A stretch of DNA of 25,564 bases from a virus (lineage: Duplodnaviria; Caudoviricetes), in IMG/VR virus record IMGVR_UViG_3300006752_000194, positions 1-25,564 of that record. One strand, given 5' to 3'. This document shows positions 3,258 through 21,143 of this stretch, piece after piece. Under the pieces are notes generated by a model. That model had not been told where the DNA came from. It saw nothing but the letters and a program-made list of their open reading frames with translations, and made no database searches. How positions within the stretch are numbered: the stretch's first letter is position 1; every line of letters begins with the position of its first letter. The position numbers were made by a program, and so were the translations under genes.

Positions 3258-3487
3258 TAGTCTTCCTTTCTATCTAGTGTGACTTTTACTTCTTCTTTAA
3301 GTTTACTCAATGTTTCCACTAAAGCCCATTTCCCCCGGTTGAGGAACAATTCCTGTTCCGATGTTGCCACCACCAGACCCTGTACGATCAAGTTCTTCTG
3401 GTGATTGAGGTGGTCCTGTAGGGCTTCCCATGCCTGCGGGCTGTTGACCAGTGGGAGGAGTTTCTTCGCCTGTTGTTTGCTGAGCAT
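3257..3487 (-). CDS. Small protein overlapping the portal 3' end in another frame
   Basis: 76 aa, helical. GGA upstream of the ATG. Its stop overlaps the next start (TAATG at 3257), implying translational coupling. Confidence 0.65.
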   Translation of the reverse strand: MLSKQQAKKLLPLVNSPQAWEALQDHLNHQKNLIVQGLVVATSEQELFLNRGKWALVETLSKLKEEVKVTLDRKED

Positions 3488-5498
3488 TTTGCATTCCTAT
3501 TATTTGGGCAGCTATTGCAGCTTCTTCCGGACTGTTCAGAATTTCTTCTGGGTCTAGGTCGAGACTGAAAGCTAGTTCACTAATTAACTTAGACATCTTA
3601 ACAAATGGTGCAACTGCAGGATTCTGTGCAGTTTGCAAGAACATAGTAAGTCTTTGTGATCTAACTTCTTTCTGCATGAGACTTGCTGTACCCATTGCTT
3701 GTATTTCTAGATCACCAACGATATCTAAATCTTCTTCTATAAATTGCATATTCCAATGGAAGAAAGCTTCTCCTAAAGGTTTAAGCAAAAAATCGTCAAT
3801 GTTTTTTATAACTGTTTTAATATTTAAACTTGATGCACCGAGTAGCATTGACATACCTGATGCAGTCCTAGTCATGCTCTGTACTCCTGTCTGCCCATGA
3901 GAGTAACTAGGTATTCCAGTTTGTTCGTCTGCAAGTTGTCTAAACTTGTCAAACATCATCATATTTTCTTGTGCTGTATTTGGAAACTTAATTCCATGTA
4001 TAGACTGTCCCGGCATTCCTGCTTGTCTTCTAAATATCTTTCCGGGATATATATCCATAGACTGTCCACCTACTAAGGCAGACTCATCTACATCAAATAC
4101 TAATGAACCTGATAGGGCTAAGTTATCAATAGCCATCCTAGCATGTCCATTCATTATTTGTTGAGAGTCCAACATGTTTTCAGGAACTCCAATACCAAAG
4201 AAACTATATGGATTCTTTTCGTAAGGGAACGCATGATATGGTAGTGTTGGAGGTGTAAACGGATTTACAACAGCTCTTAATAAATTATGTCCACAAACCC
4301 ATGCATTAATCTGTACTTCATCTAAATCATCTACTGTGTCTGGTAAATCAATACCAACTTCACGAGCATAGTCTGCATCCATGACTCCCCAGTATTCTAA
4401 GATTTCATATCTATCTGAATAGTCTGTTTCACTTCTATCTTCGTCTGCAGTTATCTGATCTTCAAAGTCACGAGCTTCATAGTTCGGACCCATCTGTAAA
4501 CAGTTTCTAATAGCATCCTTATCAAAGTAAGGCATGTGTCTAAGATTACGAACTTGACTTCTATTAAACTTATGTCTGTGAACAATGTAATCACACTCTT
4601 CCATTGTAGTAGCATTAGGGTCAGGATAAAAATCCCAACAACTTACAAACTCTACTCTAGGAACTCGTACATGTGTAGGTGTATAGTTTCTACCTTCTTC
4701 TCCAGTTGTCCAACGATGTAATGTTTTATTAAAACTAAATGGTCCTTTAAGGATTCCAGTACCAAGCATAGCTGATTCAAACAATGCATTACGTAATTCA
4801 GATACACCATTTGATTCTTCTAGTTGATCATGGATTAGTTTTTCCATATTCCTAGCAGCGATCTGTGCAGGGTTTACACTAGGTACAGGCATAGGAGAAC
4901 GACCTGCTGTTAAAACTATTTCTCCATCTACTCCTGTGTAATTATCTTCTAATGAAGATAGAAAACTTTCACCACTTGTTAAAGTAGCTCCCGGTTTTAA
5001 AACATTACCATCACCTTCAAAACCTACATCAAAAGGATTCATAGTTGTTTCAACTTGTGAAACATCAATACCACTTTCTATTTGTGGTCCTTCAATACTT
5101 ACTGGTGCTTGATTTAATTCTATGTGAGCTTCTTTGGCTATACCTTCAGGCAGCCTTGTTTCTTTTACTGATATTGGAAACTCACCTGTTCCAAACAGTA
5201 CGTCAATAAGTTGACCATAGGCAGCTACTGTTTTAGTTTTAGTAACTTTAATGAATACTCTTGACTTTTCAGATTCTCTAAACCTAACTCGTTTACCATA
5301 TAAACCTCTAAAGTTTTGATATGATTGTAACCATCGTTCTTCATCACCCTGCCTAGCTCTTTCTGCTTCAGCAAAACGACTTTTAATAATCCCTACAAGA
5401 TTTCTACTTTGTCCTTCTTCAAGTTGTAGACTTTTTCCATCTTCACCTTCTACGTCTACGTAAAGGTTATCTGCATTTAGAAATGTATTTTCTTCCAT
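3303..5498 (-). CDS. Portal (head-tail connector) protein
   Basis: Follows terL. Motifs WDFYPDP, PYSFFGIG and TRTASGMSML. Start moved to the MEENTF ATG at 5498, just after the terL stop at 5500. Confidence 0.9.
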   Translation of the reverse strand: MEENTFLNADNLYVDVEGEDGKSLQLEEGQSRNLVGIIKSRFAEAERARQGDEERWLQSYQNFRGLYGKRVRFRESEKSRVFIKVTKTKTVAAYGQLIDVLFGTGEFPISVKETRLPEGIAKEAHIELNQAPVSIEGPQIESGIDVSQVETTMNPFDVGFEGDGNVLKPGATLTSGESFLSSLEDNYTGVDGEIVLTAGRSPMPVPSVNPAQIAARNMEKLIHDQLEESNGVSELRNALFESAMLGTGILKGPFSFNKTLHRWTTGEEGRNYTPTHVRVPRVEFVSCWDFYPDPNATTMEECDYIVHRHKFNRSQVRNLRHMPYFDKDAIRNCLQMGPNYEARDFEDQITADEDRSETDYSDRYEILEYWGVMDADYAREVGIDLPDTVDDLDEVQINAWVCGHNLLRAVVNPFTPPTLPYHAFPYEKNPYSFFGIGVPENMLDSQQIMNGHARMAIDNLALSGSLVFDVDESALVGGQSMDIYPGKIFRRQAGMPGQSIHGIKFPNTAQENMMMFDKFRQLADEQTGIPSYSHGQTGVQSMTRTASGMSMLLGASSLNIKTVIKNIDDFLLKPLGEAFFHWNMQFIEEDLDIVGDLEIQAMGTASLMQKEVRSQRLTMFLQTAQNPAVAPFVKMSKLISELAFSLDLDPEEILNSPEEAAIAAQIIGMQNAQQTTGEETPPTGQQPAGMGSPTGPPQSPEELDRTGSGGGNIGTGIVPQPGEMGFSGNIE

Positions 5499-5499
5499 A

Positions 5500-7221
5500 T
5501 TAATATCCAAAAGTAGAATCAGAAGCTTCAAATGTACGTTGCTTTAAACGTATCATATCTGAAATAGGGTCTGACATTCTAGGTCTACTCATTATTAAAT
5601 ACCTTAACGCATCATAAGCGTGATCCTGTGCATGCGTATCTACATCCTCAGGATTCGTTTTAGACAAAGGTATACTTTGTAATTCTTTTATTAAGTCAGG
5701 ACAAGTATTAAATATCTGCAAGCGTGGTCTACTTTCTGGAGTTGCTTGTTTTAAATATTCGTGTATTTGCACTTTTCCTGCTATTCTATTTTTATCTGCT
5801 CGTCTAAGTTTATGTCCTGCTTTAATCAAGACTTCACCAATGGTAGGACCTGTGTAACCTGTCCTAGCCCATGCAGCAGTATCTAGTACTCCTGCAATAG
5901 AACGATACTCTTCTTTTTCTCGTTCGGTAATCTGTGCTCCGAGTGCTTCACCTGTAAGACCTTTTTGATAAAGTTCTCTATATATAATGAGGGTCTTATC
6001 TTGTGGATCAACAGCAGCCCAAAGACAACAGCTTTCCGAAGCGTAACCATAGTCGATCCCCTTGACTCTTTCCCAATGTAAGGGTATGTCAAATGGTGGT
6101 ACTACGTGTACAGATGGATCAAACTCTACAAAAGCTGCTCCTTCATTTACTTCCCAGTTACCTTCTAATAATTGTTTTCTTTGGATTGGAGGTAGTGAAA
6201 GGAGCATGCGTTCATACTCACCATCTTTTGCTAAGTAAGGATTATCCATTAACTTAGCCGGAATAAACTTTCTTGTTAAACCATCCGAACCTATAAAAGA
6301 TTTATTAGGTTCATCTGATTCCAAATATCTTTTCTTTACCCAATGTGCTCCAACACCTCCCGGGTTTGCAGTACAACGTAAATAAGTTTTTATAGCAGGG
6401 TCTGTTGTTCTTAAACGTGAAGCTAAATAGTTCCACCCGAACTCAGTTGGTAAGTGAGTTATCTCATCAAACCCTATCCAACTGTATGCTTGACCTTGGT
6501 ATCTATATACGTCTGCATCTTTTTCCAAGAAACCAAATTCTATTTTAGCTCCACTTGGAAAGTTCCAAATCTTTTCTACTTCTCTAAACTTTGCACCGGG
6601 AAAAGCTTTTGGATATAATTCTCTACTTTTATCTATCAGTTCTCGTAACTCTGGCATAGACCTTCTAAGTATTAAAGCTCTATGTCCTTTAATGTGACAA
6701 GACCTCAATGGGTCTATCAACATTGCAAAACTTTTACCACCACCGGCTGCACCACCATAAAGAACATCTTTTTCGTCTGCTGCTAAGAAGTCTGTCTGTG
6801 GTCCTTCATTCGGCATAAACGCAACAAAAGAATTAGTCTCATTTAAATGAGCCTGTACAGAATCTGCAAGTTGGCTAACTTCGTTCTTAGTTACTACCTT
6901 CCCTTCTTTTGATACTGTCCCTTCATCCGATGCGTTCTCAAACTTACGGATGGTTGTTTCCTGTTGTCTGAGTGTTTGCTTTTTGGATCGTAATTTCTTT
7001 TCGAGTTTTTCAACTGCTTTCCTCTTTGAAGTTAATGATCTACGAGCTGCTTGTTTCTTCTGAACTGCAGAAGAATATGCATAATTAGATTTCGACCCTT
7101 TAGGTCTTCCTCCCTTCTTTCGAGGTGTTCCATCTTTCTTAAGTATAAGGTTACCTTCAGAATCTGTCAAGTATTGAGTTGAATTTATTTCTGTCGGATT
7201 CTTCTTGTCGTTGTCTGTCAT
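5500..7221 (-). CDS. terL: Terminase large subunit
   Basis: Walker A GGAAGGGKS, Walker B IGFDE, TANPGG coupling motif, nuclease GIDYG and DHAYDALRY. Confidence 0.95.
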   Translation of the reverse strand: MTDNDKKNPTEINSTQYLTDSEGNLILKKDGTPRKKGGRPKGSKSNYAYSSAVQKKQAARRSLTSKRKAVEKLEKKLRSKKQTLRQQETTIRKFENASDEGTVSKEGKVVTKNEVSQLADSVQAHLNETNSFVAFMPNEGPQTDFLAADEKDVLYGGAAGGGKSFAMLIDPLRSCHIKGHRALILRRSMPELRELIDKSRELYPKAFPGAKFREVEKIWNFPSGAKIEFGFLEKDADVYRYQGQAYSWIGFDEITHLPTEFGWNYLASRLRTTDPAIKTYLRCTANPGGVGAHWVKKRYLESDEPNKSFIGSDGLTRKFIPAKLMDNPYLAKDGEYERMLLSLPPIQRKQLLEGNWEVNEGAAFVEFDPSVHVVPPFDIPLHWERVKGIDYGYASESCCLWAAVDPQDKTLIIYRELYQKGLTGEALGAQITEREKEEYRSIAGVLDTAAWARTGYTGPTIGEVLIKAGHKLRRADKNRIAGKVQIHEYLKQATPESRPRLQIFNTCPDLIKELQSIPLSKTNPEDVDTHAQDHAYDALRYLIMSRPRMSDPISDMIRLKQRTFEASDSTFGY

Positions 7222-7456
7222 ACTTCTTATCTATGTGTTTTTTTAATCCCATCCTTGAGAGTTTACGATTTGTACTTGCTTCTAACCAGTCTACTGCAAC
7301 AGCTAAACTGATCTCATCATTCTTAACCATTTGTGATACAACATCTAATGCATGTATCTGTTCAGTAATAGGTTTAAGATAACCATCTACTTCTATATCA
7401 ACTTCATATCCAAAAGGTATGGTTGATGTTTTTCTTTTTATATATCCTTCTTTCAT
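7157..7456 (-). CDS. Hypothetical protein, possibly DNA-binding (IPFGY motif like recombinase DNA-binding domains)
   Basis: 99 aa, ATGA overlap with the iscU stop, overlaps the terL start. Confidence 0.65.
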   Translation of the reverse strand: MKEGYIKRKTSTIPFGYEVDIEVDGYLKPITEQIHALDVVSQMVKNDEISLAVAVDWLEASTNRKLSRMGLKKHIDKKYDRQRQEESDRNKFNSILDRF

Positions 7457-7869
7457 AACTGATTGTGCTTTCTATAAGCTGTCTTTGTTTCCCAATCTTC
7501 TATTGCTTTTGCAATACTATCTTCTGCAAGAACAGAACAATGTAACTTTATTGGTGGTAACTCTAATGCTTCTGCAATATCTTTATCTTTAATAAGCTTT
7601 GCTTCTTGTATTGTTTTACCCTTAAGCATATCTACAAACAATGTAGAGGATGCGATAGCACTACCACAACCATAGGTTTTAAACTTAACATCTTCTATTA
7701 AGTCCCCATCTAGTTTAAGTTGTAGTCTCATTACATCACCACAAGCCGGTGCACCTGTCATACCTGTAGCTACGTTAGGGTCTGTAGAATCAAACCTACC
7801 TACTGCATGTTTCTCAGGTTCGTTGAGTACACTATCAAACCTGTCAAGTACTTGTTGTGAATATGCCAT
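7453..7869 (-). CDS. iscU: Fe-S cluster scaffold protein IscU (auxiliary metabolic gene)
   Basis: MAYS start, GAPACGDVM, FKTYGCGSAIASS, LPPIKLHCS. All three Cys, the His and an LPPVK-like chaperone motif are present. Confidence 0.95.
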   Translation of the reverse strand: MAYSQQVLDRFDSVLNEPEKHAVGRFDSTDPNVATGMTGAPACGDVMRLQLKLDGDLIEDVKFKTYGCGSAIASSTLFVDMLKGKTIQEAKLIKDKDIAEALELPPIKLHCSVLAEDSIAKAIEDWETKTAYRKHNQL

Positions 7870-8708: not shown

Positions 8709-8893
8709 TACTTATAACCTCCACCTTTAGCTTTGTATTCTTTAGCAAGCATCTGAGCCTTCCTAGCACTCCATTGTCCGGGTCTACCACCTTTACCCCC
8801 TGCTTTAATCTTATTGAAAAGATTCTTTCTCATCGTAGGTTTGGTATAGTTACCTGCTTTATTTACTGTCGATTTCTTTTTCTTTGCTGCCAT
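8708..8893 (-). CDS. Highly basic protein (DUF5872-like, N-terminal half)
   Basis: GQWSARKAQMLAKEYKAKGGGYK motif; TAATG coupling; family call from memory. Confidence 0.7.
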   Translation of the reverse strand: MAAKKKKSTVNKAGNYTKPTMRKNLFNKIKAGGKGGRPGQWSARKAQMLAKEYKAKGGGYK

Positions 8894-9390
8894 TACTCTT
8901 CCTCTTCATCATTAGTTTCTCCAACATCATATTGTTGGAATCCAGTTTCTGTTTCATAGTCAATGTCTTCTTCTTCATATTCTATTTCCTCTGCTTCTGC
9001 ATCTATAGGAGCTTTGTCTGGTAATATAAAGATACCACTAGATGCTTGCATATTAATGTCTAACTTCTCAGACTTAGAAACTCCTACACGATCTAATAAA
9101 GACTGTGCAGCTACAAGTTTATTACTAGCCTGAGGTATTGGTTTATCTGAATCCATAATCTCTAAAAGCTTAAAAGCTGCTTTAGGGGCATTGTGTGCTA
9201 GTACATCCTTAGTTAGTTCTAATACTTCATTCTTTAAAGCCTTCAAGACTTGATAGTGTCCACCAGAGTAACCGGCTAATTCTGCTGCTATCTTAGCATT
9301 ACCTTCTGTTTCTATCAGATTATCTAAGAATAGTTGTTGTTTTTCTGTAAGCTGCCTAGCTTGTTGTGTGGTTGGTATAATACTGCTCAT
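8893..9390 (-). CDS. terS: Terminase small subunit (putative)
   Basis: LTEKQQLFL...AAELAGYS HTH pattern typical of TerS. Acidic tail. First gene of the packaging operon. Confidence 0.7.
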   Translation of the reverse strand: MSSIIPTTQQARQLTEKQQLFLDNLIETEGNAKIAAELAGYSGGHYQVLKALKNEVLELTKDVLAHNAPKAAFKLLEIMDSDKPIPQASNKLVAAQSLLDRVGVSKSEKLDINMQASSGIFILPDKAPIDAEAEEIEYEEEDIDYETETGFQQYDVGETNDEEEE

Positions 9391-9397
9391 GTAAACC

Positions 9398-9425
9398 AGT
9401 ATAGGGTTATATTAAAAAAAGTCAA
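9398..9425 (-). promoter_or_regulatory. Sigma70-type promoter for terS/late operon, apparently leaderless
   Basis: TTGACT-16 nt-TATACT, then 7 nt to the ATG. No SD. Confidence 0.65.
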
Positions 9426-9432
9426 GAAGGAC

Positions 9433-9461
9433 TTGACAAAAAGCTCTCTGGACTGTAGAAT
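9433..9461 (+). promoter_or_regulatory. Sigma70-type promoter firing into the giant inverted repeat
   Basis: TTGACA-17 nt-TAGAAT. Confidence 0.75.
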
Positions 9462-10405
9462 GAGGCTTGTCCGGTAGGCAGGTTAGTACCTATAGGATAC
9501 ACCCTCCACTAATAGTCTATTAAGCCCGACCTAACTGGTTGACACCCTAAACCCCATAAAACATTTAACCATGCCATAGATATATACGGAGGGTGGTATG
9601 GTCTCCTGCGTACCCCTAAAGAACCTGACGTATGAGCAGGCACTAGACCTACTATTGATCTTTTATCACAAACTAGCAAGACTAAATAAACTTCAAGACT
9701 ACTGAGTCCTACTGGATATACTTTAGGAAACCCCTTATAGTTTTGTAAAGCTTAGAAGCTTTTAAAAGTTTATATAGTCTTCATCAGTAAGCAAACATAG
9801 CAAGCTCTGAGTACATTGAGTTGGCTCTCCCCTCATCTAACTACCATATGATAAGCTTTGCAAGCTACACAGGGGTTACTGAGCTTGCCAGACTACTATA
9901 AGTGTAGGCTTCAACTCCAAAAACTATCTAGTTTACAAAGTTTACTAAGTTTGTAAGCATTAATATTATTATGTTTAAATTAAGAACTTCATAAACTTCA
10001 AAGGGTTAGATAGTTTTTGTAGTATTTCATATCCATTCCATATCCATATTATAAGTATCCATAGTTTGATATAGTCTATGAGTGTAAGAGCAAGCTAGAT
10101 AGTCCCGATCTTATGTAATCTTCTTGTGTATCACACTAGCTTTTACACTTAGAAGACTTGAGAAGCTTGCTATCCTTGAAGCACTAATCCCATATCCCTG
10201 TCCTGAAACTGTGTGTTTCTAAGACCTTGTAACGTCATAAGTGATCATTAATATCTCCTTGTACTTTTAATTACATATTACATGAAAACTTTATAGCTCA
10301 CAAGAGTCAAGACCCTGTAACAGCTAAAGCTTAACAGGCTCTAACCTCTGCTCTTGTAATCTAAAAGATTTCCATGTCTAATGTATGTAATACAAGGAGA
10401 ATATT

Positions 10406-10588
10406 ATGATACTAATAACCTTTCAAGATCAAGAAACTCATCAGTTTCAAAACAGTTTTATGGCAAAGTGCTTCATTGGATACCAATCCACTCAAGACCT
10501 CTTTGTTGTAAAAGTTAGATGTGATAAGGCATCTGATTACATTGCAATCGAAGACTACCTTAGATTGCTTAACACTAATATCCAATAA
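10406..10588 (+). CDS. Hypothetical protein (60 aa) in the right arm of the inverted repeat
   Basis: AAGGAG SD, intact ORF. Confidence 0.75.
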   Translation: MILITFQDQETHQFQNSFMAKCFIGYQSTQDLFVVKVRCDKASDYIAIEDYLRLLNTNIQ

Positions 10589-10605
10589 AACTAAGGAGTT
10601 ATAAT

Positions 10606-10881
10606 ATGGATACTACATTTGATATGAAAAAAGTGAAGCCTGAAACACTTAAAGGTCAGGCAACCTATAACCAATGTGTAGGACTTGCAAAGAAGTTCTC
10701 ATATGGTTTGAAAGGAAAAGAGTGGGGAGAGTCTTACTCTAGAATCAGAGCTTGTTTGCTTGCTGCTTCTAAAGAAGGAACTCTTTCTTTTGAAAAAGCT
10801 TCTGATCTTTTCAAGAAGAAGAAGCTTCCTAAAGTATATCAAGATAGAATAGCTGCATATCTTGATATTCATTCCGGCTAG
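10606..10881 (+). CDS. Hypothetical basic protein (91 aa) in the right arm of the inverted repeat
   Basis: TAAGGAG SD, intact ORF, followed by terminators. Confidence 0.8.
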   Translation: MDTTFDMKKVKPETLKGQATYNQCVGLAKKFSYGLKGKEWGESYSRIRACLLAASKEGTLSFEKASDLFKKKKLPKVYQDRIAAYLDIHSG

Positions 10882-10896
10882 TTTGTAGCTTTAAAA

Positions 10897-10929
10897 GGGA
10901 GTAGGTCTTATCACCTGCTCCTTTTTTTT
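10897..10929 (+). terminator. Rho-independent terminator
   Basis: GGAGTAGGT/ACCTGCTCC stem followed by T8. Confidence 0.85.
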
Positions 10930-10947
10930 GTTCTTGGGGTATTAAGT

Positions 10948-10977
10948 AGGCTTGGCAGTAGCCAAGTCTTTTTATTT
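10948..10977 (+). terminator. Second tandem terminator
   Basis: AGGCTTGGC-agta-GCCAAGTCT followed by a T-rich tail. Confidence 0.75.
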
Positions 10978-11062
10978 GCAGGAGACCATACCATATTAAA
11001 TATAAATCTAAAGTACTTCGTTATCGGATGTTAAAATAGGCGGCGGTGGGTGGAGGGCATAT

Positions 11063-11126
11063 TGTAAATAAATTGTATATAACTTGTATATATCCTGTAT
11101 ATAACTTGTATATATCCTGTGGATAA
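11063..11126. repeat. Six DnaA-box-like 9-mers at exact 11-bp spacing
   Basis: TGTAAATAA 11063, TGTATATAA 11074, TGTATATAT 11085, TGTATATAA 11096, TGTATATAT 11107, TGTGGATAA 11118 (perfect TTATCCACA on the minus strand). Confidence 0.75.
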
Positions 11127-11175
11127 CTTTAGTATTATATTAAGTAGGGGGCAAGCGGTGGAGGGAGTTAAAACA

Positions 11176-11226
11176 TGTACCTTTGCCTACTGTACCTTAC
11201 TAAACTATGTACCTATATCTGTACCT
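11176..11226 (+). repeat. Four TGTACCT direct repeats
   Basis: Copies at 11176, 11191, 11208 and 11220. Confidence 0.7.
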
Positions 11227-11262
11227 TTTAGACTACAATACGTTAAAAACTATTAAGATAAT

Positions 11263-11305
11263 AGATATAATAGACTTGACAAGATCATGCCGGTTGGGAT
11301 AAACT
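11263..11305 (+). promoter_or_regulatory. Early promoter 1
   Basis: TTGACA(11276)-18 nt-TAAACT. The 21-mer AGATATAATAGACTTGACAAG is shared with 11955-11975. Confidence 0.75.
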
Positions 11306-11368
11306 TTAAAGGGTCAGGGCAACGACCCAGACGTTTGTTTAAAATATAATAACCTGAGGAGGTTTAAT

Positions 11369-17748: not shown

Positions 17749-19401
17749 ATGGAGAAAAGCAATTGGGAAAAACACAAACTACCCTGCCCTAAGTGTGGAG
17801 GTAGTGACCCAGTATCTACAAATACAGATGGCTCAGGTTATTGCTTTAGTTGTACCCACTATTTTAAAGACTATCAACAAGAAGTTGATGGAAATATTGT
17901 AGACATGGCTACACATAAAGAACCTAGTACATTTTTAAATTCATACACAGGAGTCTTTGGTGACTTAACTGATCGTAAGATTAGTGAGAATGTCGCAAAG
18001 AAATATGCTGTGCGTGTAGTTTATGACAACGAAGGTAAAGTAGCTAAGCATATCTATCCTTACTATAATAGTAATGAGATTGTTTCTACTAAGACACGTA
18101 CTGTAAGCACAAAAGGTTTTACAGTTGAAGGTGGGTATGAAGGCACAGGTTTATTTGGAGAACAACTCTTTGGTAAAGGAGGTAAGTACCTCACGATTAC
18201 AGAAGGTGAGTGTGATGCAATGGCTGTGTATGAAATATTTGATAAGAAGTGGGCATCAGTTTCTATAAAGCGTGGTGCTCAAGGTGCAGTACGAGATATA
18301 AGAGACAGCATAGAGTTTGTTGAATCGTTTGATAATGTTATCCTTTGTTTTGATAATGACAAACATGGTAGAGAAGCAGCACGTAAGGTTGCCCGTATTA
18401 TAAAACCGGGAAAGACTAAGATTGTTACTTTGCCTGAAGGATTTAAAGATGCTAATGCTATGCTTGAGCAAGGGCAGTATGCACAGTTTACGAAAGCTTG
18501 GTGGGATGCTAAGACATATACACCATCAGGTATCATGGAACTATCAAGTGCCAAAGACAAATGGTTGTACCGAGAGCAGAAAGAAAGCATTGCTTATCCT
18601 TGGGAAGGATTAAACAAAAAGCTTTATGGTATGCGTAAAGGAGAGTTAGTTACATTGACTGGTGGTACAGGACTTGGTAAGTCAAGCATCACACGAGAGC
18701 TTTCTCACTACTTAATCAAGCATACTACAGACAATGTAGGTATCATAGCCCTTGAAGAAAACTGGTTAAAGACTGCTGATGGTTTAGTTTCTATTGAAGC
18801 TAATGATCGTTTGTATCTTGAAGAGAAACGTAAGAAGTATACAGACGAGCAACTCACAGAATTATTTGATAGAGTTATTCAGAAAGATAAAGTATTTATT
18901 CATGCTCATCTTGGAGCTACAGATATCGATGAGATATTTTCTAAACTACGATATATGATTGTCGGTTGTGAATGTCAATGGGTTGTAGTAGATCACTTAC
19001 ATATGTTAGTTAATCAACTTACCGAAACAGATGAACGTAGAGGTATAGATAATCTTATGAATCGTTTGCGTTCTTTAGTTGAAGAAACTGGTGTCGGTAT
19101 GTTTTTAGTATCACACTTACGTAGAGCAGCAGGTGATCGAGGACATGAGCAAGGTATAGAAGTATCTCTTTCTCATCTCAAGGGATCTCAAGGTATATCT
19201 CAACTGTCTGACTGTGTGATTGCACTAGAACGTAACCAACAAGCAGAAGATGAAGTTGAATCTAATACAACAAAAGTTCGTGTACTTAAATCTAGATACA
19301 CAGGAGATACCGGATTAGCTTGTAGCTTACTTTATAATTCTGATACTGGTAGAATGAATGAAGTCACAGATGAAATGACGTTAGAAAACTCACCCTTTTA
19401 G
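17749..19401 (+). CDS. T7 gp4-like primase-helicase
   Basis: Zn ribbon CPKC...CFSC, TOPRIM ITEGECD and FDND, Walker A GGTGLGKS, VSHLRR. Confidence 0.95.
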   Translation: MEKSNWEKHKLPCPKCGGSDPVSTNTDGSGYCFSCTHYFKDYQQEVDGNIVDMATHKEPSTFLNSYTGVFGDLTDRKISENVAKKYAVRVVYDNEGKVAKHIYPYYNSNEIVSTKTRTVSTKGFTVEGGYEGTGLFGEQLFGKGGKYLTITEGECDAMAVYEIFDKKWASVSIKRGAQGAVRDIRDSIEFVESFDNVILCFDNDKHGREAARKVARIIKPGKTKIVTLPEGFKDANAMLEQGQYAQFTKAWWDAKTYTPSGIMELSSAKDKWLYREQKESIAYPWEGLNKKLYGMRKGELVTLTGGTGLGKSSITRELSHYLIKHTTDNVGIIALEENWLKTADGLVSIEANDRLYLEEKRKKYTDEQLTELFDRVIQKDKVFIHAHLGATDIDEIFSKLRYMIVGCECQWVVVDHLHMLVNQLTETDERRGIDNLMNRLRSLVEETGVGMFLVSHLRRAAGDRGHEQGIEVSLSHLKGSQGISQLSDCVIALERNQQAEDEVESNTTKVRVLKSRYTGDTGLACSLLYNSDTGRMNEVTDEMTLENSPF

Positions 19402-19409
19402 GAGACGAT

Positions 19410-21143
19410 ATGAAAGAAATTGTATTTGATATAGAAGCTAATGGTTTAAAACCTGATAAGATTTGGTGTATTGTAGCCAAGCCTTTAGGTCAACCTGTTG
19501 TTTCGTTTGGTCCGAACAAGATCAAAGAAGGTATAGAGTATTTAAAATCTGCTGATTCATTAATTGGTCATAACATTTTAGGATTTGATTTACCTGTGAT
19601 TAAAAAGTTATACAACGAAGACTTAACTAACTTAGTAATAAAAGATACATTAGTAATGTCTCGATTGTTTAATCCAGTACGAGAGAATGGTCATAGTTTA
19701 AAAACATGGGGATACATTATCGGGTTTACTAAAGATGAACAACCGGAAGACTGGGATCAGTTTTCACAAGACATGCTTAAGTATTGTCAGAAGGATGTAA
19801 TCTTAAATGAAAAAGTATACAACAAACTTTTACAAGAAGGTGAACAGTTCGATGAAGAATCTATCAAGTTAGAACATGGTGTTGCTACAGTCCTGAAAGA
19901 TCAGGAAGATTTTGGTTTTGAATTTAATCAAGAGTATGCCATGATGTTAGTAGCTCAACTCAAAGAACGTATGTTTAAAGTTGAGAAAGAAGTACAACAA
20001 GTATTCAAACCTAAGATGGTAGATGTTAAACAAGTGATACCTAAACTCAAGAAAGATGGTACGTTATCTAAGTCAGGCTTGACTGTTGAAGAATATGACA
20101 GACTTATTGTTGAAGGAGATTACTTACCTTTTATGAGACAGAAGTTACAACCTTTTAACTTAGGTTCTCGTAAACAAATTGGTGAGTATCTAACAGACTT
20201 TGGTTGGAAACCTAATAGGTTTACTCCAACTGGTCTTCCGATCGTAGATGAATCTTCGTTGGCTAAAGTAAAAAACATACCGGAAGCTAGGTTGATAGCA
20301 GAGTTTTTATTATTACAAAAACGCATAGCCCAAATTGATTCGTGGATATTAGCTGTACAAGAAGACAATAGAGTACATGGTTTTGTTATTCCTAATGGAA
20401 CAATTACTGGTCGTATGTCTCATCGTGCTCCTAATGTTGCACAAGTTCCTAGTGTTGCTAGTGAGTATGGTACAGAATGTAGATCATGTTGGACAGTACG
20501 TGATGGTTATAAATTAGTAGGTATAGATGCAAGTGGTTTAGAATTAAGAATGCTTGCACACTACATGGACGATGAGGAATACACAAATGAAGTTACAGAA
20601 GGAGATATACACACAGCTAATCAAAAAGCTGCAGGACTTAAATCAAGAGATCAGGCAAAGACATTCATCTATGCATTTATATACGGAGCAGGAGATGCTA
20701 AGATTGGGAGTGTGGTTGGAGGAGGTAAAAAACTTGGAGCAGAACTTAAGCAACGCTTCCTCGATAATAACCCATCACTTAAAGTCCTTCGAGACAGAGT
20801 ATCTAGAGCAGCTAAACGAGGATACCTCAAAGGATTAGATGGTCGTAAGATATTTATTCGCAACGAACATGCAGCACTTAATAGTTTATTACAAGGTGGT
20901 GGTGCAATAGTTATGAAGAGAGCTTTACTTATGCTACAGGATATGATAAAGTTACAAACTTTAGATGCTAAGTTTGTTGCTAACATTCACGATGAATGGC
21001 AGATGGAAGTACGTCAAGATTTATCTGACCATGTAGGTGAGTTAGCTATTGAATGTATTATTAAAGCGGGAGAATATTATAATCTTCGCTGTCCGATGGA
21101 TGGTGAATACAAAGTAGGAGATAATTGGAGTGAAACCCATTAA
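19410..21143 (+). CDS. Family A DNA polymerase (T7 gp5-like)
   Basis: Exonuclease FDIEANG, motif A DASGLELR, motif B RDQAKTFIYAFIYG, motif C IHDE. Confidence 0.95.
   Translation: MKEIVFDIEANGLKPDKIWCIVAKPLGQPVVSFGPNKIKEGIEYLKSADSLIGHNILGFDLPVIKKLYNEDLTNLVIKDTLVMSRLFNPVRENGHSLKTWGYIIGFTKDEQPEDWDQFSQDMLKYCQKDVILNEKVYNKLLQEGEQFDEESIKLEHGVATVLKDQEDFGFEFNQEYAMMLVAQLKERMFKVEKEVQQVFKPKMVDVKQVIPKLKKDGTLSKSGLTVEEYDRLIVEGDYLPFMRQKLQPFNLGSRKQIGEYLTDFGWKPNRFTPTGLPIVDESSLAKVKNIPEARLIAEFLLLQKRIAQIDSWILAVQEDNRVHGFVIPNGTITGRMSHRAPNVAQVPSVASEYGTECRSCWTVRDGYKLVGIDASGLELRMLAHYMDDEEYTNEVTEGDIHTANQKAAGLKSRDQAKTFIYAFIYGAGDAKIGSVVGGGKKLGAELKQRFLDNNPSLKVLRDRVSRAAKRGYLKGLDGRKIFIRNEHAALNSLLQGGGAIVMKRALLMLQDMIKLQTLDAKFVANIHDEWQMEVRQDLSDHVGELAIECIIKAGEYYNLRCPMDGEYKVGDNWSETH

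What the first reader, a model, noticed from the sequence alone, without database searches (positions are those of the whole stretch)
9594..10993. Kilobase-scale imperfect hairpin whose one arm encodes two genes and whose other arm is a non-coding complement
Seen: the apparently empty 9594-10320 region is, block by block, the reverse complement of 10330-10993. It is closed by a perfect 16-bp stem (TGGTATGGTCTCCTGC/GCAGGAGACCATACCA) and capped at AGCT-AA-AGCT (10322-10331). Perfect blocks of 5-16 bp alternate with mismatches and small indels, roughly two-thirds pairing by eye. The complement covers both SDs/start regions, both ORFs (10406-10588, 10606-10881) and the first terminator. The left-arm copies stop within 10 codons (MITYDVTRS*, MDMEWI*). 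Inference: pairing rather than coding is being maintained. One model is a ~1.5-kb transcript from the 9433 promoter folding into a rod that silences two possibly toxic early genes. The other is an ssDNA/cruciform structure at the genome end used in ejection, replication or packaging. I know no described system with this architecture, but could not search the literature.
Basis: partly seen in the sequence, partly recalled or inferred. Interest (0 to 1): 0.92.

Follow-up and report, generated by a model that had tools for sequence, protein, structure and literature searches.

The report
Co-evolving kilobase palindrome in marine phages
A 1.4-kb imperfect DNA palindrome, in which one arm carries the phage's first two early genes and the other arm is a non-coding mirror copy, is real and is kept self-complementary in every related marine phage examined, so it is likely a working fold-back structure of a kind not described for phages in the papers searched.

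Summary
Window 9594-10993 is a genuine quasi-palindrome. Arm-versus-arm alignment scores 124 against 18±2.5 for shuffles. RNA folding energy is -523/-561 kcal/mol against -299±8. Contigs from three DNA runs bridge the tip.

The genome is an uncultured HTVC103P/HMO-2011-like marine phage. The palindrome lies between the TerS gene with its back-to-back divergent promoters and an 11-bp-phased iteron array that ends in the window's only perfect DnaA-box 9-mer.

Of 30 evaluable relatives carrying the right-arm 91-aa gene, 27 hold a 0.85-1.37 kb palindrome covering it. These fall into 14 lineages whose left arms no longer align with each other. Each left arm still matches its own right arm at 75-88%. 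Compensated double changes run 2.4-16 times above expectation, and the left arm tracks the right.

Wobble statistics and folding energies favour the minus strand in 19 of 20 genomes. My best reading (about 0.35) is a minus-strand single-stranded DNA fold-back beside a predicted replication origin. The rivals are an early-mRNA hairpin, a self-perpetuating neutral palindrome and an antisense RNA. Function is untested.

The parts
9398..9425 (-). Promoter-like site (TTGACT-16-TATACT) facing the TerS/structural operon. Its -35 hexamer lies back-to-back with that of the early promoter, and together they form the small inverted repeat at 9421-9437.
   Evidence: invariant in 15 of 15 aligned relatives
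9433..9461 (+). Near-consensus sigma-70-type early promoter (TTGACA-17-TAGAAT) reading into the left arm.
   Evidence: equivalent 11-12 of 12 matches 130-205 nt upstream of the palindrome in L029, L034, L017, L105 and L102
9466..9593 (+). Non-coding leader that is more conserved than the arms (87-98% identity in close relatives). It ends in a G-rich box, GGAGGG.
   Evidence: no covariation-supported fold on either strand
9594..9609 (.). Left half of the perfect 16-bp closing stem.
   Evidence: invariant in 8 of 8 sequences of alignment A1; covaries with its partner between clades
9610..10326 (.). Left arm: a non-coding, degenerate reverse complement of the right arm. It includes mirror copies of both ribosome-binding sites, both ORFs and terminator 1.
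   Evidence: it diverges at about the rate of TerL four-fold sites
9914..10023 (.). Conserved AT-rich side-branch ('island') of the left arm with no right-arm partner. It is a local hairpin (9914-9930 with 10007-10023), carries AAGTTTAC repeats and has a promoter-like TTTACT-17-TATTAT site.
   Evidence: (I10, I13)
10322..10331 (.). Tip of the palindrome (AGCT-AA-AGCT). The surrounding ~37 nt are conserved in 6 of 8 close relatives.
10327..10977 (+). Right arm: the coding arm.
10406..10588 (+). Gene 1, 60 aa, no known family. It is present only in the lineages with the longer palindrome.
10606..10881 (+). Gene 2, 91 aa, an all-helical orphan family found in every palindrome-bearing lineage (30-48% aa identity between groups).
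10893..10926 (+). Terminator-like hairpin 1, mirrored in degenerate form in the left arm at about 9620-9660.
10948..10969 (+). Terminator-like hairpin 2 plus a T-run. It is a side-branch with no left-arm partner and lies just inside the right closing half.
10978..10993 (.). Right half of the closing stem. It lies downstream of both terminators.
11034..11057 (.). G-rich box (GGTGGGTGGAGGG), the first of two direct copies. It is related to the GGAGGGTGG at 9589.
   Evidence: (D4)
11062..11129 (-). Array of six 11-nt iterons (TTGTATATAAC). The last unit is the window's only perfect TTATCCACA (11118-11126). This is the predicted replication origin or an operator array.
   Evidence: (D1); lineage-specific 11-nt arrays at the same place in L104, L105 and L109
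11142..11165 (.). Second G-rich box.
   Evidence: (D4)
11174..11232 (.). Second set of short repeats (TGTACCT, about four copies; bounds approximate).
   Evidence: read

Best explanation
This is a real 1.4-kb imperfect palindrome lying between the early promoter and an iteron array, and its two arms co-evolve in every lineage of related marine phages examined. It likely works as a fold-back of the minus strand when that strand is single-stranded, most probably as DNA during replication from the predicted origin next to it.

Shown directly:
(i) The palindrome exists and is not a chimera.
(ii) 27 of 30 evaluable loci that carry the gene-2 family have a 0.85-1.37 kb palindrome covering that gene.
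(iii) The palindromes fall into 14 lineages whose left arms no longer align with each other, yet each left arm is 75-88% complementary to its own right arm.
(iv) The non-coding left arm changes toward the coding right arm more often than chance allows, and not the reverse.
(v) Mismatches are of the benign kinds (G·T/U, G·G) on the minus strand and of the disruptive kinds (A·C, C·C) on the plus strand.
(vi) The closing stem covaries between clades and lies outside the predicted early transcription unit.
(vii) An 11-bp-phased iteron array sits 70-200 nt beyond the right arm in all four lineages checked. In the window it contains a perfect DnaA-box 9-mer.

Inferred:
- The iterons are a replication origin.
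- A leftward fork from that origin exposes the minus strand as lagging-strand template, and that strand snaps back into the rod.
- The rod serves as a structural signal, for example for helicase-primase loading, priming or fork control. Which of these it does is unknown.
- The sense-mRNA hairpin that the same sequence must also form is a side effect, which the A·C and C·C mismatches would weaken.
For: Position and conservation
- Self-complement scores are 216-362 in 20 of 36 loci scanned upstream of TerL, 99 and 75 in the L013/L014 variant, and 28-72 in the other 14 (13 distant relatives and the cut contig L008).
- In the gene-2-based set, 27 of 30 evaluable loci have a palindrome that covers gene 2.

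Co-evolution of the arms
- The left arm scored against its own right arm gives 106-176. Scored against other clades' right arms it gives 14-30.
- Among 22 hairpins in 14 lineages, within-genome complementarity exceeded cross-genome complementarity in 231 of 231 pairs.
- In alignment A1, 87 of 316 pairs changed on both sides, against 29-36 in slid controls and 40.8±4.5 in shuffles.
- Compensated doubles against expectation: 8 vs 0.5, 5 vs 0.7, 6 vs 0.9, 10 vs 2.0, 24 vs 4.5, 34 vs 14 and 45 vs 13.5.
- Right-arm codon positions 1, 2 and 3 are paired equally: 0.745, 0.757 and 0.740.
- Pair-restoring changes on the left arm number 22 (14 after removing one register artefact) against 6.1 expected. 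On the right arm they number 5 against 3.1.

Which strand folds
- Among embedded mismatches, C:C outnumbers G:G 29 to 1, and A:C-type outnumbers G:T-type 51 to 20.
- Wobble pairs on the minus versus the plus strand: 290 vs 177 in 14 genomes, and 53/7, 32/7, 34/6, 23/9 and 22/9 in further or repeated lineages.
- The minus strand is the more stable in 13 of 14 and in 6 of 6 hairpins, by up to 174 kcal/mol. It is also more stable with DNA parameters.
- Ordinary plus-coded regions of this genome show the opposite bias.

Closing stem
- It covaries between clades, and its right half lies after a stem-loop and T-run in all groups.

Origin-like flank
-; the cumulative GC-skew minimum falls at 9.5-10.5 kb.
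Against: - No experiment or read-level data shows single-stranded DNA, an origin or any function here.
- The iterons could be operator sites. The DnaA-box consensus is recalled, and one perfect 9-mer in 25.5 kb has roughly a 1-in-5 chance of occurring somewhere.
- The GC-skew minimum also coincides with the switch of coding strand.
- The strand asymmetry could be partly mutational (cytosine loss on a lagging-strand template) rather than selective. It is weak in the window's own clade: on alignment A1, 122 A·C-type versus 108 G·U-type. L034 and L112 show the reverse bias.
- A hairpin-based signal would not need 1.4 kb or need to contain genes.
- The left arm is certainly downstream of a consensus early promoter, so an RNA-level effect on genes 1 and 2 is physically unavoidable and may be the selected one.
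- One lineage, L013/L014, keeps gene 2 without the large palindrome.
Confidence: 0.35

Rival explanations
1. Sense-strand RNA rod. The early transcript from the promoter at 9433 contains both arms and folds into a long imperfect hairpin. This masks the ribosome-binding sites of genes 1 and 2, so their expression is delayed, limited or made to depend on RNase III-type processing.
For: - A near-consensus promoter lies 130-205 nt upstream of the left arm in all six lineages scanned.
- No terminator is predicted between the promoter and the genes.
- Both Shine-Dalgarno and start regions are paired: 10244-10263 with 10391-10410, and 10041-10054 with 10599-10612, the latter perfect over 14 bp (pairs I12 and I17). 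The second is the most conserved helix (helix 26).
- The plus-strand fold is -523 kcal/mol against -299±8 for shuffles.
- L013/L014, which lack the gene-complementary arm, still have a long leader made of local palindromes.
- RNA-library contigs from relatives cover both arms, although their strand and any DNA carry-over are unknown.
Against: - Wobble pairs are depleted on the plus strand and enriched on the minus strand.
- The plus strand is the less stable strand in 19 of 20 hairpins.
- The covarying closing stem has its 3' half beyond both terminators.
- The left arm evolves at about the neutral rate.
Confidence: 0.25
2. Self-perpetuating neutral quasi-palindrome. An old inverted duplication is kept similar by DNA-level correction alone, through intramolecular template switching or short-patch gene conversion from the right arm to the left. 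Selection acts only against arms that become too perfect. The structure has no function.
For: - The left arm diverges at about the rate of TerL four-fold sites.
- Lengths of perfect blocks fit random placement, with the longest at 12-22 bp.
- Pairing does not depend on codon position.
- A ~40-nt insertion at the tip in L007 is itself palindromic.
- In the window's own clade, A·C-type and G·U-type breaks are equal.
- Template-switch correction of quasi-palindromes is an established mutational process. A yeast example appeared in the listing (PMC3820800, abstract only seen).
Against: - The element persists in 14 lineages that have diverged beyond left-arm alignability, always at 75-88% arm identity, and was lost in only one lineage.
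- Phage genomes are compact and long palindromes are costly.
- A strand-blind copying process does not predict the minus-strand wobble bias of up to 7.6 to 1.
- No long perfect tracts from recent conversion are seen.
Confidence: 0.2
3. Minus-strand RNA. A leftward transcript, antisense to genes 1 and 2, folds into the rod. It would act as a regulator or as a structured leader ahead of the late (TerS) operon.
For: - The frequency of minus-strand G·U (about 11% of pairs in L105) is typical of RNA helices.
- With RNA parameters the minus strand is favoured in 19 of 20 hairpins.
- On this strand the closing stem lies inside the molecule.
Against: - No conserved leftward promoter lies to the right of the palindrome. 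The 11/12 match at 11375-11346 overlaps the next gene's start and is not conserved. None was found in L105 or L029.
- The apparent leftward terminator at 9421-9437 is explained by two back-to-back -35 hexamers.
Confidence: 0.08
4. Genome-end structure. The palindrome is a concatemer junction, or the precursor of a hairpin telomere, that is resolved into fold-back ends in the manner of poxvirus junctions.
For: - Imperfect palindromes with a conserved tip are what such junctions look like (recalled).
- Two contigs end 24-37 nt upstream of gene 2, near where the tip would be (L107, L110).
- A Cas4/RecB-type exonuclease and a gp2.5-like annealing protein are encoded in the window.
Against: - 27 of 30 evaluable contigs and three DNA runs read straight through.
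- The two flanks are unique rather than inverted copies of each other.
- No protelomerase or resolvase was seen among the 22 ORFs scanned.
- Assemblers often break at palindrome centres.
Confidence: 0.05

Closest known systems
Large palindromes kept alike by arm-to-arm gene conversion (human Y-chromosome palindromes, plastid inverted repeats; recalled), and the long inverted repeats reported as actively maintained in C. elegans (PMC1803023, abstract seen in the listing)
   Same: Kilobase-scale inverted repeats whose arms evolve in concert rather than drifting apart.
   Different: In those cases the arms are nearly identical and usually both coding. Here the arms stay at 75-88% identity, only one arm codes, the spacer is only a few bases, and the host is a roughly 50-kb lytic-type phage.
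Quasi-palindrome correction by template switching (recalled from work in E. coli; PMC3820800 for yeast, abstract only)
   Same: A DNA-level process that makes one arm of an imperfect inverted repeat match the other. This is a plausible source of the left-arm changes toward the right arm.
   Different: It is described for hairpins of tens of bases as a mutational hotspot, not as the upkeep of a 1.4-kb element across diverged lineages.
Rod-shaped RNA replicons with one coding side (hepatitis delta virus, Obelisks; recalled)
   Same: About 70% self-complementary unbranched rods of 1-1.7 kb, in which an ORF occupies one side and the other side is its non-coding complement.
   Different: Those are circular RNA genomes. 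This is a segment of a dsDNA phage. There is no evidence of RNA-templated copying or ribozymes, and Rfam gave no match.
Hairpins that work in single-stranded DNA: single-strand origins of rolling-circle plasmids, the M13 minus-strand origin, the F-plasmid Frpo single-strand promoter, and mitochondrial OriL used by a T7-like replisome (all recalled)
   Same: Imperfect fold-backs of one specific strand, formed only when that strand is exposed and read by a polymerase or primase. The window encodes a T7-like primase-helicase, a family-A polymerase and a gp2.5-like SSB.
   Different: Those are 30-330 nt and contain no genes. None is known in a tailed phage at this scale.
RNase III-processed hairpins of phage early mRNAs (T7 early region, lambda sib; recalled), and co-transcribed sRNA/antagonist hairpins (PMC8687705, abstract seen in the listing)
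   Same: Imperfect hairpins in early transcripts that control the stability or translation of neighbouring genes.
   Different: Those are tens of base pairs long and lie beside genes. They are not a mirror image of whole genes.

Membership tests
Functional RNA hairpin on the sense (plus) strand | G·U wobble is tolerated and so exceeds A·C in helices on the transcribed strand. | tested here: not met
   Plus-strand G·U against A·C: 177 vs 290; 20 vs 51 among embedded mismatches; 7 vs 53 in L105.
Functional RNA hairpin on the sense (plus) strand | Both arms lie inside one transcription unit. | tested here: inconclusive
   The promoter lies upstream of the left arm in six lineages. The right half of the closing stem lies after both predicted terminators. 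No stranded reads were available.
Any structure kept by pairing | Compensatory changes exceed those in shuffled and slid controls. | tested here: met
   87 pairs changed on both sides, against 29-36 in slid controls and 40.8±4.5 in shuffles, 0 of 500 shuffles reaching the observed value.
Neutral decayed inverted duplication | A left arm is no closer to its own right arm than to the right arms of relatives. | tested here: not met
   Within-genome complementarity exceeds cross-genome complementarity in 231 of 231 pairs and throughout the matrix.
Invertible DNA switch (Hin/Gin type) | Both orientations of the segment occur among copies, and a recombinase gene lies nearby. | tested here: not met
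   Gene 2 lies in the TerL-distal arm on the strand opposite to TerL in 24 of 25 loci. The exception is a weak 29%-identity hit. No recombinase was found among the 22 ORFs scanned.
Foldback or MITE-type mobile element | Several copies at different sites. | tested here: not met
   The terminal 16-mer occurs only as the one inverted pair in the window. The element is at the same place in all relatives. Target-site duplications were not examined.
Diversity-generating retroelement (template and variable repeats) | Differences between the copies sit at adenines of the silent copy, and a reverse transcriptase is present. | tested here: not met
   On the sense-equivalent strand of the left arm, the bases at mismatches are T 427, G 388, C 200 and A 385, with no adenine bias. 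No reverse transcriptase was found among the scanned ORFs. The window covers only about half of a genome.
Hairpin telomere or concatemer junction | Molecules end at the palindrome. | not testable with these tools
   Only contigs were served. 27 of 30 evaluable contigs read through, and 2 further contigs end near the tip.
Iteron-type replication origin with a DnaA box | Phased direct repeats, an AT-rich stretch and a DnaA box. | tested here: inconclusive
   Six 11-nt repeats; the only perfect TTATCCACA in the window forms their last unit; lineage-specific arrays in three other lineages. Initiation itself is untested, and the box consensus is recalled.
Known RNA families (Rfam 15) | A covariance-model match. 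| tested here: not met
   Only two chance-level matches, E 0.39 and 0.65, far below the gathering scores.

The most novel reading that the evidence does not exclude
A clade of abundant marine phages hides its first early genes inside one arm of a kilobase-long fold-back element. That element is part of the replication origin and is kept foldable on one specific strand by selection. This would be a new origin and regulatory architecture in which a coding region doubles as half of a giant single-stranded hairpin. It would be the DNA-phage counterpart of the one-sided coding rods of hepatitis delta virus and Obelisks.
Probability: 0.35. Interest if true: 0.9.

Novelty: new variant of a known kind. 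Interest (0 to 1): 0.8.

Why it matters
- Long palindromes are normally unstable and costly. A phage lineage that keeps one for long enough that its arms are rewritten many times over points to a strong benefit that is not yet understood.
- If the element is part of an origin, it would give the first handle on how this abundant and largely uncultured group of ocean phages starts replication. It would also extend single-strand hairpin signals from tens of bases to a kilobase.
- If it acts on the mRNA, it would be an unusually large built-in antisense control of the very first phage genes.
- In either case it is a clean natural system for separating selection on structure from DNA-level copy correction. 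Dozens of diverged natural variants are already in public data.
- The 91-aa gene that always travels with the element belongs to an orphan family of 72 cluster representatives with no known fold.

Tried and rejected
Checks that led nowhere
- blastn of 9300-11200 against 50,697 phage records: no match.
- Rfam: nothing.
- PHROGs and Pfam for genes 1 and 2: nothing.
- Foldseek of the gene 2 model (pLDDT 83.6) against the PDB: no hit at E <= 0.001.
- Pfam on seven longer family members: one stray CtaA hit only.
- The conserved leader (9415-9612): no covariation-supported fold on either strand.
- RNA-library contigs (X15-X18) cover both arms. They give no strand, ends or DNA-carry-over control, so they do not show expression.
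- The parts without cover in those runs are not evidence of anything.
- Earlier-findings look-ups returned nothing relevant.

Ideas considered and dropped
- Leftward terminator at 9421-9437: reinterpreted as two back-to-back -35 hexamers.
- Leftward promoter at 11375-11346: not conserved.
- Gene-scale mirrored indel (gene 1 absent from both arms in some lineages) as proof of copying: dropped, because one deletion across the tip explains it.
- Slower change at paired sites than at unpaired sites: dropped as evidence, because conditioning on the window's own pairs predicts a ratio of about 0.5.
- A cluster of eight 'gains' at 10250-10274: an indel-register artefact.
- Silent-cassette donor model (left arm feeding variation into gene 2): right-arm changes toward the left arm are not in excess, 5 against 3.1 expected.
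- DGR, invertible switch, MITE: see the membership tests.
- HTVC115P, the nearest isolate (TerL 64% identity): no gene 2 homologue and only two smaller palindromes. Its self-complement scores are 74 and 70, or 112 when the record's ends are joined.

Literature
- Four searches (and term look-ups inside two group-specific papers) found no description of this element.
- 'palindrom', 'hairpin' and 'terminal repeat' occur 0 times in PMC9038755 and in bioRxiv 2019.12.14.876532.
- Supplements were not read.
Full report
**1. What the window is**

PHROG scans place a structural and packaging module on the minus strand. It holds TerS (8893-9390), TerL (5500-7221), portal (3303-5531) and major head protein (2-940). 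A T7-like replication module lies on the plus strand. It holds primase-helicase (17749-19401), family-A DNA polymerase (19410-21143), a gp2.5-like SSB, a Cas4-type exonuclease and ribonucleotide reductase.

The best TerL matches among cultured phages are Pelagibacter phages HTVC115P, HTVC103P and HTVC104P at 64-65% amino-acid identity. The HMO-2011-type roseophages follow at about 45%. The whole held genome is this one 25,564-base contig. The finding sits exactly where the two modules diverge.

**2.

- The sequence features are as described: the 16-bp perfect closing stem, the AGCT-AA-AGCT tip, the two ORFs, the two terminator-like hairpins and the promoter at 9433.
- The left arm aligned to the reverse complement of the right arm scores 124. 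Shuffles give 18.1±2.5, and the best of 130 other window segments gives 33.
- About 80% of aligned bases match, and about 65% of left-arm bases are paired.
- Folded as RNA, the plus strand reaches -523 kcal/mol and the minus strand -561. Shuffles give -299±8.
- Contigs from three DNA runs bridge the tip, so the element is not an assembly chimera.
A conserved, roughly 110-nt AT-rich side-branch (9914-10023) interrupts the left arm. Terminator 2 is a side-branch of the right arm.

**3. Relatives**

TerL retrieved 80 viral contigs. I scanned up to 7 kb upstream of TerL in the 36 loci with at least 3.5 kb of sequence there.
- Twenty have a self-complementary region of 605-1,359 nt at the same place, with symmetric scores of 216-362.
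- Two (L013, L014) score 99 and 75.
- Fourteen score 28-72. Thirteen are mostly distant relatives with TerL at 65-70% identity, and one is L008, a close relative whose contig is cut.

A profile of the right-arm 91-aa gene retrieved 32 loci.
- Two have no upstream sequence.
- Two are cut by the contig end.
- One shows only the inner 605 nt.
- The other 27 have a palindrome of 847-1,367 nt at 75-88% arm identity that covers the gene fully.

L063 also has the palindrome. L013 and L014 keep the gene but have only three smaller local palindromes in the leader. HTVC115P has no homologue of the gene and only two short palindromes.

The right arm always carries the 91-aa gene, at 30-48% identity between groups. 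The 60-aa gene 1 is present only in the longer versions.

**4. The arms co-evolve**

- In a 14-genome matrix, each left arm scored against its own right arm gives 106-176. Against the right arms of other clades it gives 14-30. Left arms of different clades score 13-30 against each other.
- With 22 hairpins from 14 left-arm sequence clusters, within-genome complementarity exceeded cross-genome complementarity in 231 of 231 pairs.
- I aligned eight orthologous hairpins and used a structure taken from the window (316 pairs). There, 83.8% of cells pair, against 40-44% when partners are slid by 1-3 columns. Eighty-seven pairs show changes on both sides, against 29-36 in slid controls and 40.8±4.5 in shuffles.
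- With the window's own row left out, compensated double changes exceed the independence expectation in all seven genomes: 8 vs 0.5, 5 vs 0.7, 6 vs 0.9, 10 vs 2.0, 24 vs 4.5, 34 vs 14 and 45 vs 13.5.
- In close relatives these are scattered single pairs and include double transversions.
- The closing stem itself covaries between clades.

This rejects a decaying neutral duplication.

**5. How the match is kept**

- The left arm diverges at about the rate of TerL four-fold sites and breaks pairs one to four times as often as the right arm does.
- Right-arm codon positions 1, 2 and 3 are equally paired, at 0.745, 0.757 and 0.740 with n = 1,635 each. Fast-changing synonymous sites are therefore followed as well as constrained ones.
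- With changes polarised among six close genomes, pair-restoring changes on the left arm number 22 against 6.1 expected. The count is 14 after removing one alignment-register artefact. On the right arm they number 5 against 3.1 expected.
- The left arm therefore tracks the right arm. Whether this happens by selection on point changes or by short-patch copying cannot be told from these data.
- Lengths of perfect blocks fit random placement, with the longest at 12-22 bp and no long fresh tracts.
- A ~40-nt insertion at the tip in L007 is itself palindromic, which hints at fold-back copying.

**6. Which strand folds**

- If the sense mRNA rod were what selection sees, G·U should outnumber A·C on the plus strand. 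The reverse holds: 177 against 290 over 14 genomes.
- Among mismatches embedded in helices, G·U-type against A·C-type is 20 against 51, and C·C against G·G is 29 against 1.
- In further or repeated lineages, plus-strand against minus-strand wobble counts are 7/53, 7/32, 6/34, 9/23 and 9/22. One lineage goes the other way, at 7/4.
- The minus strand folds more stably in 13 of 14 and in 6 of 6 hairpins, by 9-174 kcal/mol. L034 is the exception. The minus strand is also favoured with DNA parameters.
- This is not the genome's usual coding-strand bias. In ordinary plus-coded stretches the plus strand is the more stable by 13-88 kcal/mol per 1,400 nt in nine of ten segments (the tenth favours the minus strand by 3.5).
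- Caveats. In the window's own clade the asymmetry is weak, 122 against 108. A replication-linked loss of cytosine on the minus strand could contribute, although the substitution spectrum among close relatives shows no strong bias of that kind.

**7. Transcription layout**

- A near-consensus sigma-70-type promoter points into the left arm, 130-205 nt upstream of it, in the window, L029, L034, L017, L105 and L102.
- The left arm is therefore predicted to be the 5' leader of the first early mRNA. A sense-strand hairpin that masks both ribosome-binding sites would form whether or not it is the selected function.
- I found no conserved leftward promoter to the right of the element.
- The small hairpin at 9421-9437, which looked like a leftward terminator, is made of the back-to-back -35 hexamers of the two divergent promoters.
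- The right half of the closing stem lies after a stem-loop and T-run in all groups. In a terminated sense transcript the stem could not form.
- RNA-library contigs of relatives cover both arms but carry no strand information.

**8. The flank**

- From 69 nt beyond the right closing half, the window has six 11-nt repeats (TTGTATATAAC).
- Read on the minus strand, these are DnaA-box-like 9-mers in phase. They end in the window's only perfect TTATCCACA (the consensus is recalled).
- The array is flanked by two G-rich boxes and followed by a second repeat set.
- Three other lineages have their own 11-nt-period arrays at the same place, each with a different unit sequence.
- An AT-rich stretch lies between the closing stem and the array.
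- The cumulative GC-skew minimum falls at 9.5-10.5 kb, although this also coincides with the coding-strand switch.
- This is the layout of an iteron-type origin. An operator array is the alternative reading.

**9. Reading**

Taken together, the data show an element selected or corrected for intramolecular complementarity. Its non-coding arm follows the coding arm. It is better foldable on the minus strand, is closed by a covarying stem outside the early transcription unit, and lies next to an origin-like array.

I therefore rank the explanations as follows.

| Explanation | Confidence |
|---|---|
| Minus-strand single-stranded DNA fold-back tied to replication | 0.35 |
| Sense-mRNA rod | 0.25 |
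| Self-perpetuating neutral quasi-palindrome | 0.20 |
| Minus-strand RNA | 0.08 |
| Genome-end junction | 0.05 |

A leftward fork from the array would expose the minus strand as lagging-strand template. What the hairpin would do there (helicase-primase loading, priming or fork control) is not shown by anything here.

**10. Novelty**

- Searches of the held literature found no description of this element: plus term look-ups in the two papers on this phage group.
- Concerted evolution of inverted repeats, quasi-palindrome correction, single-strand origin hairpins and one-sided coding RNA rods are all known. This element combines features of each at a scale and in a setting not described.
- I file it as a new variant of a known kind, with a substantial chance of being more than that.

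Noticed in passing
window 11062-11129 and 11174-11232; L104 3519-3574; L105 3442-3499 and 3568-3592; L109 3539-3574: Arrays of direct repeats with an 11-nt period lie just beyond the palindrome, and the unit sequence is specific to each lineage. The fast-evolving 91-aa gene 2 next to them is a candidate for the protein that binds them.
   Followed up: partly
window 9391-9593: The non-coding leader after the early promoter is 87-98% identical in close relatives and 76-79% in farther ones. That is more conserved than either arm and than TerL synonymous sites. No fold is supported on either strand.
   Followed up: partly
window 9589-9597, 11046-11057, 11154-11165: A G-rich box (GGAGGGTGG / GGTGGAGGG) occurs three times: once just before the palindrome and twice among the iterons. 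Its role is unknown.
   Followed up: no
window 9598-9705: A short ORF with a strong Shine-Dalgarno-like GGAGGG starts inside the left closing half. A start codon (ATG, GTG or TTG) is kept at this spot in 7 of 9 lineages inspected by eye. The peptide's length and sequence are not conserved.
   Followed up: partly
window 9991-10009 and 11299-11317: The motif ATAAACTTnAAAGGGT occurs in the left-arm island and again at the -10/start region of the next promoter (11276-11305). This suggests an internal promoter or a shared regulator site in the island.
   Followed up: no
L013 1387-2127; L014 1141-1870: One lineage keeps genes 1 and 2 and the closing-stem motif, but its long leader folds into three local palindromes instead of mirroring the genes.
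   Followed up: partly
L107 and L110 (contigs of 13,146 and 53,141 bases): Two contigs end 24-37 nt upstream of gene 2, about where the palindrome tip should be. This could be an assembler break at a palindrome centre or a real molecular end.
   Followed up: no
alignment A1 and TerL (window vs L005, L007, L021): The whole palindrome module is far more diverged than TerL synonymous sites in these genomes: gene 2 is 56-76% identical at the nucleotide level against 73-80% at TerL four-fold sites. This suggests the module is exchanged as a unit between conserved flanks.
   Followed up: partly
window 7453-7869 (-): A NifU-like Fe-S cluster assembly gene sits between the TerS and TerL genes in the packaging module.
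   Followed up: no
L081/L082 (Pelagibacter phage HTVC115P, record ends): The nearest isolate has about 590 nt of non-coding DNA after TerS. It has two palindromes of about 280 and 360 nt around the point where the record was opened.
   Followed up: partly
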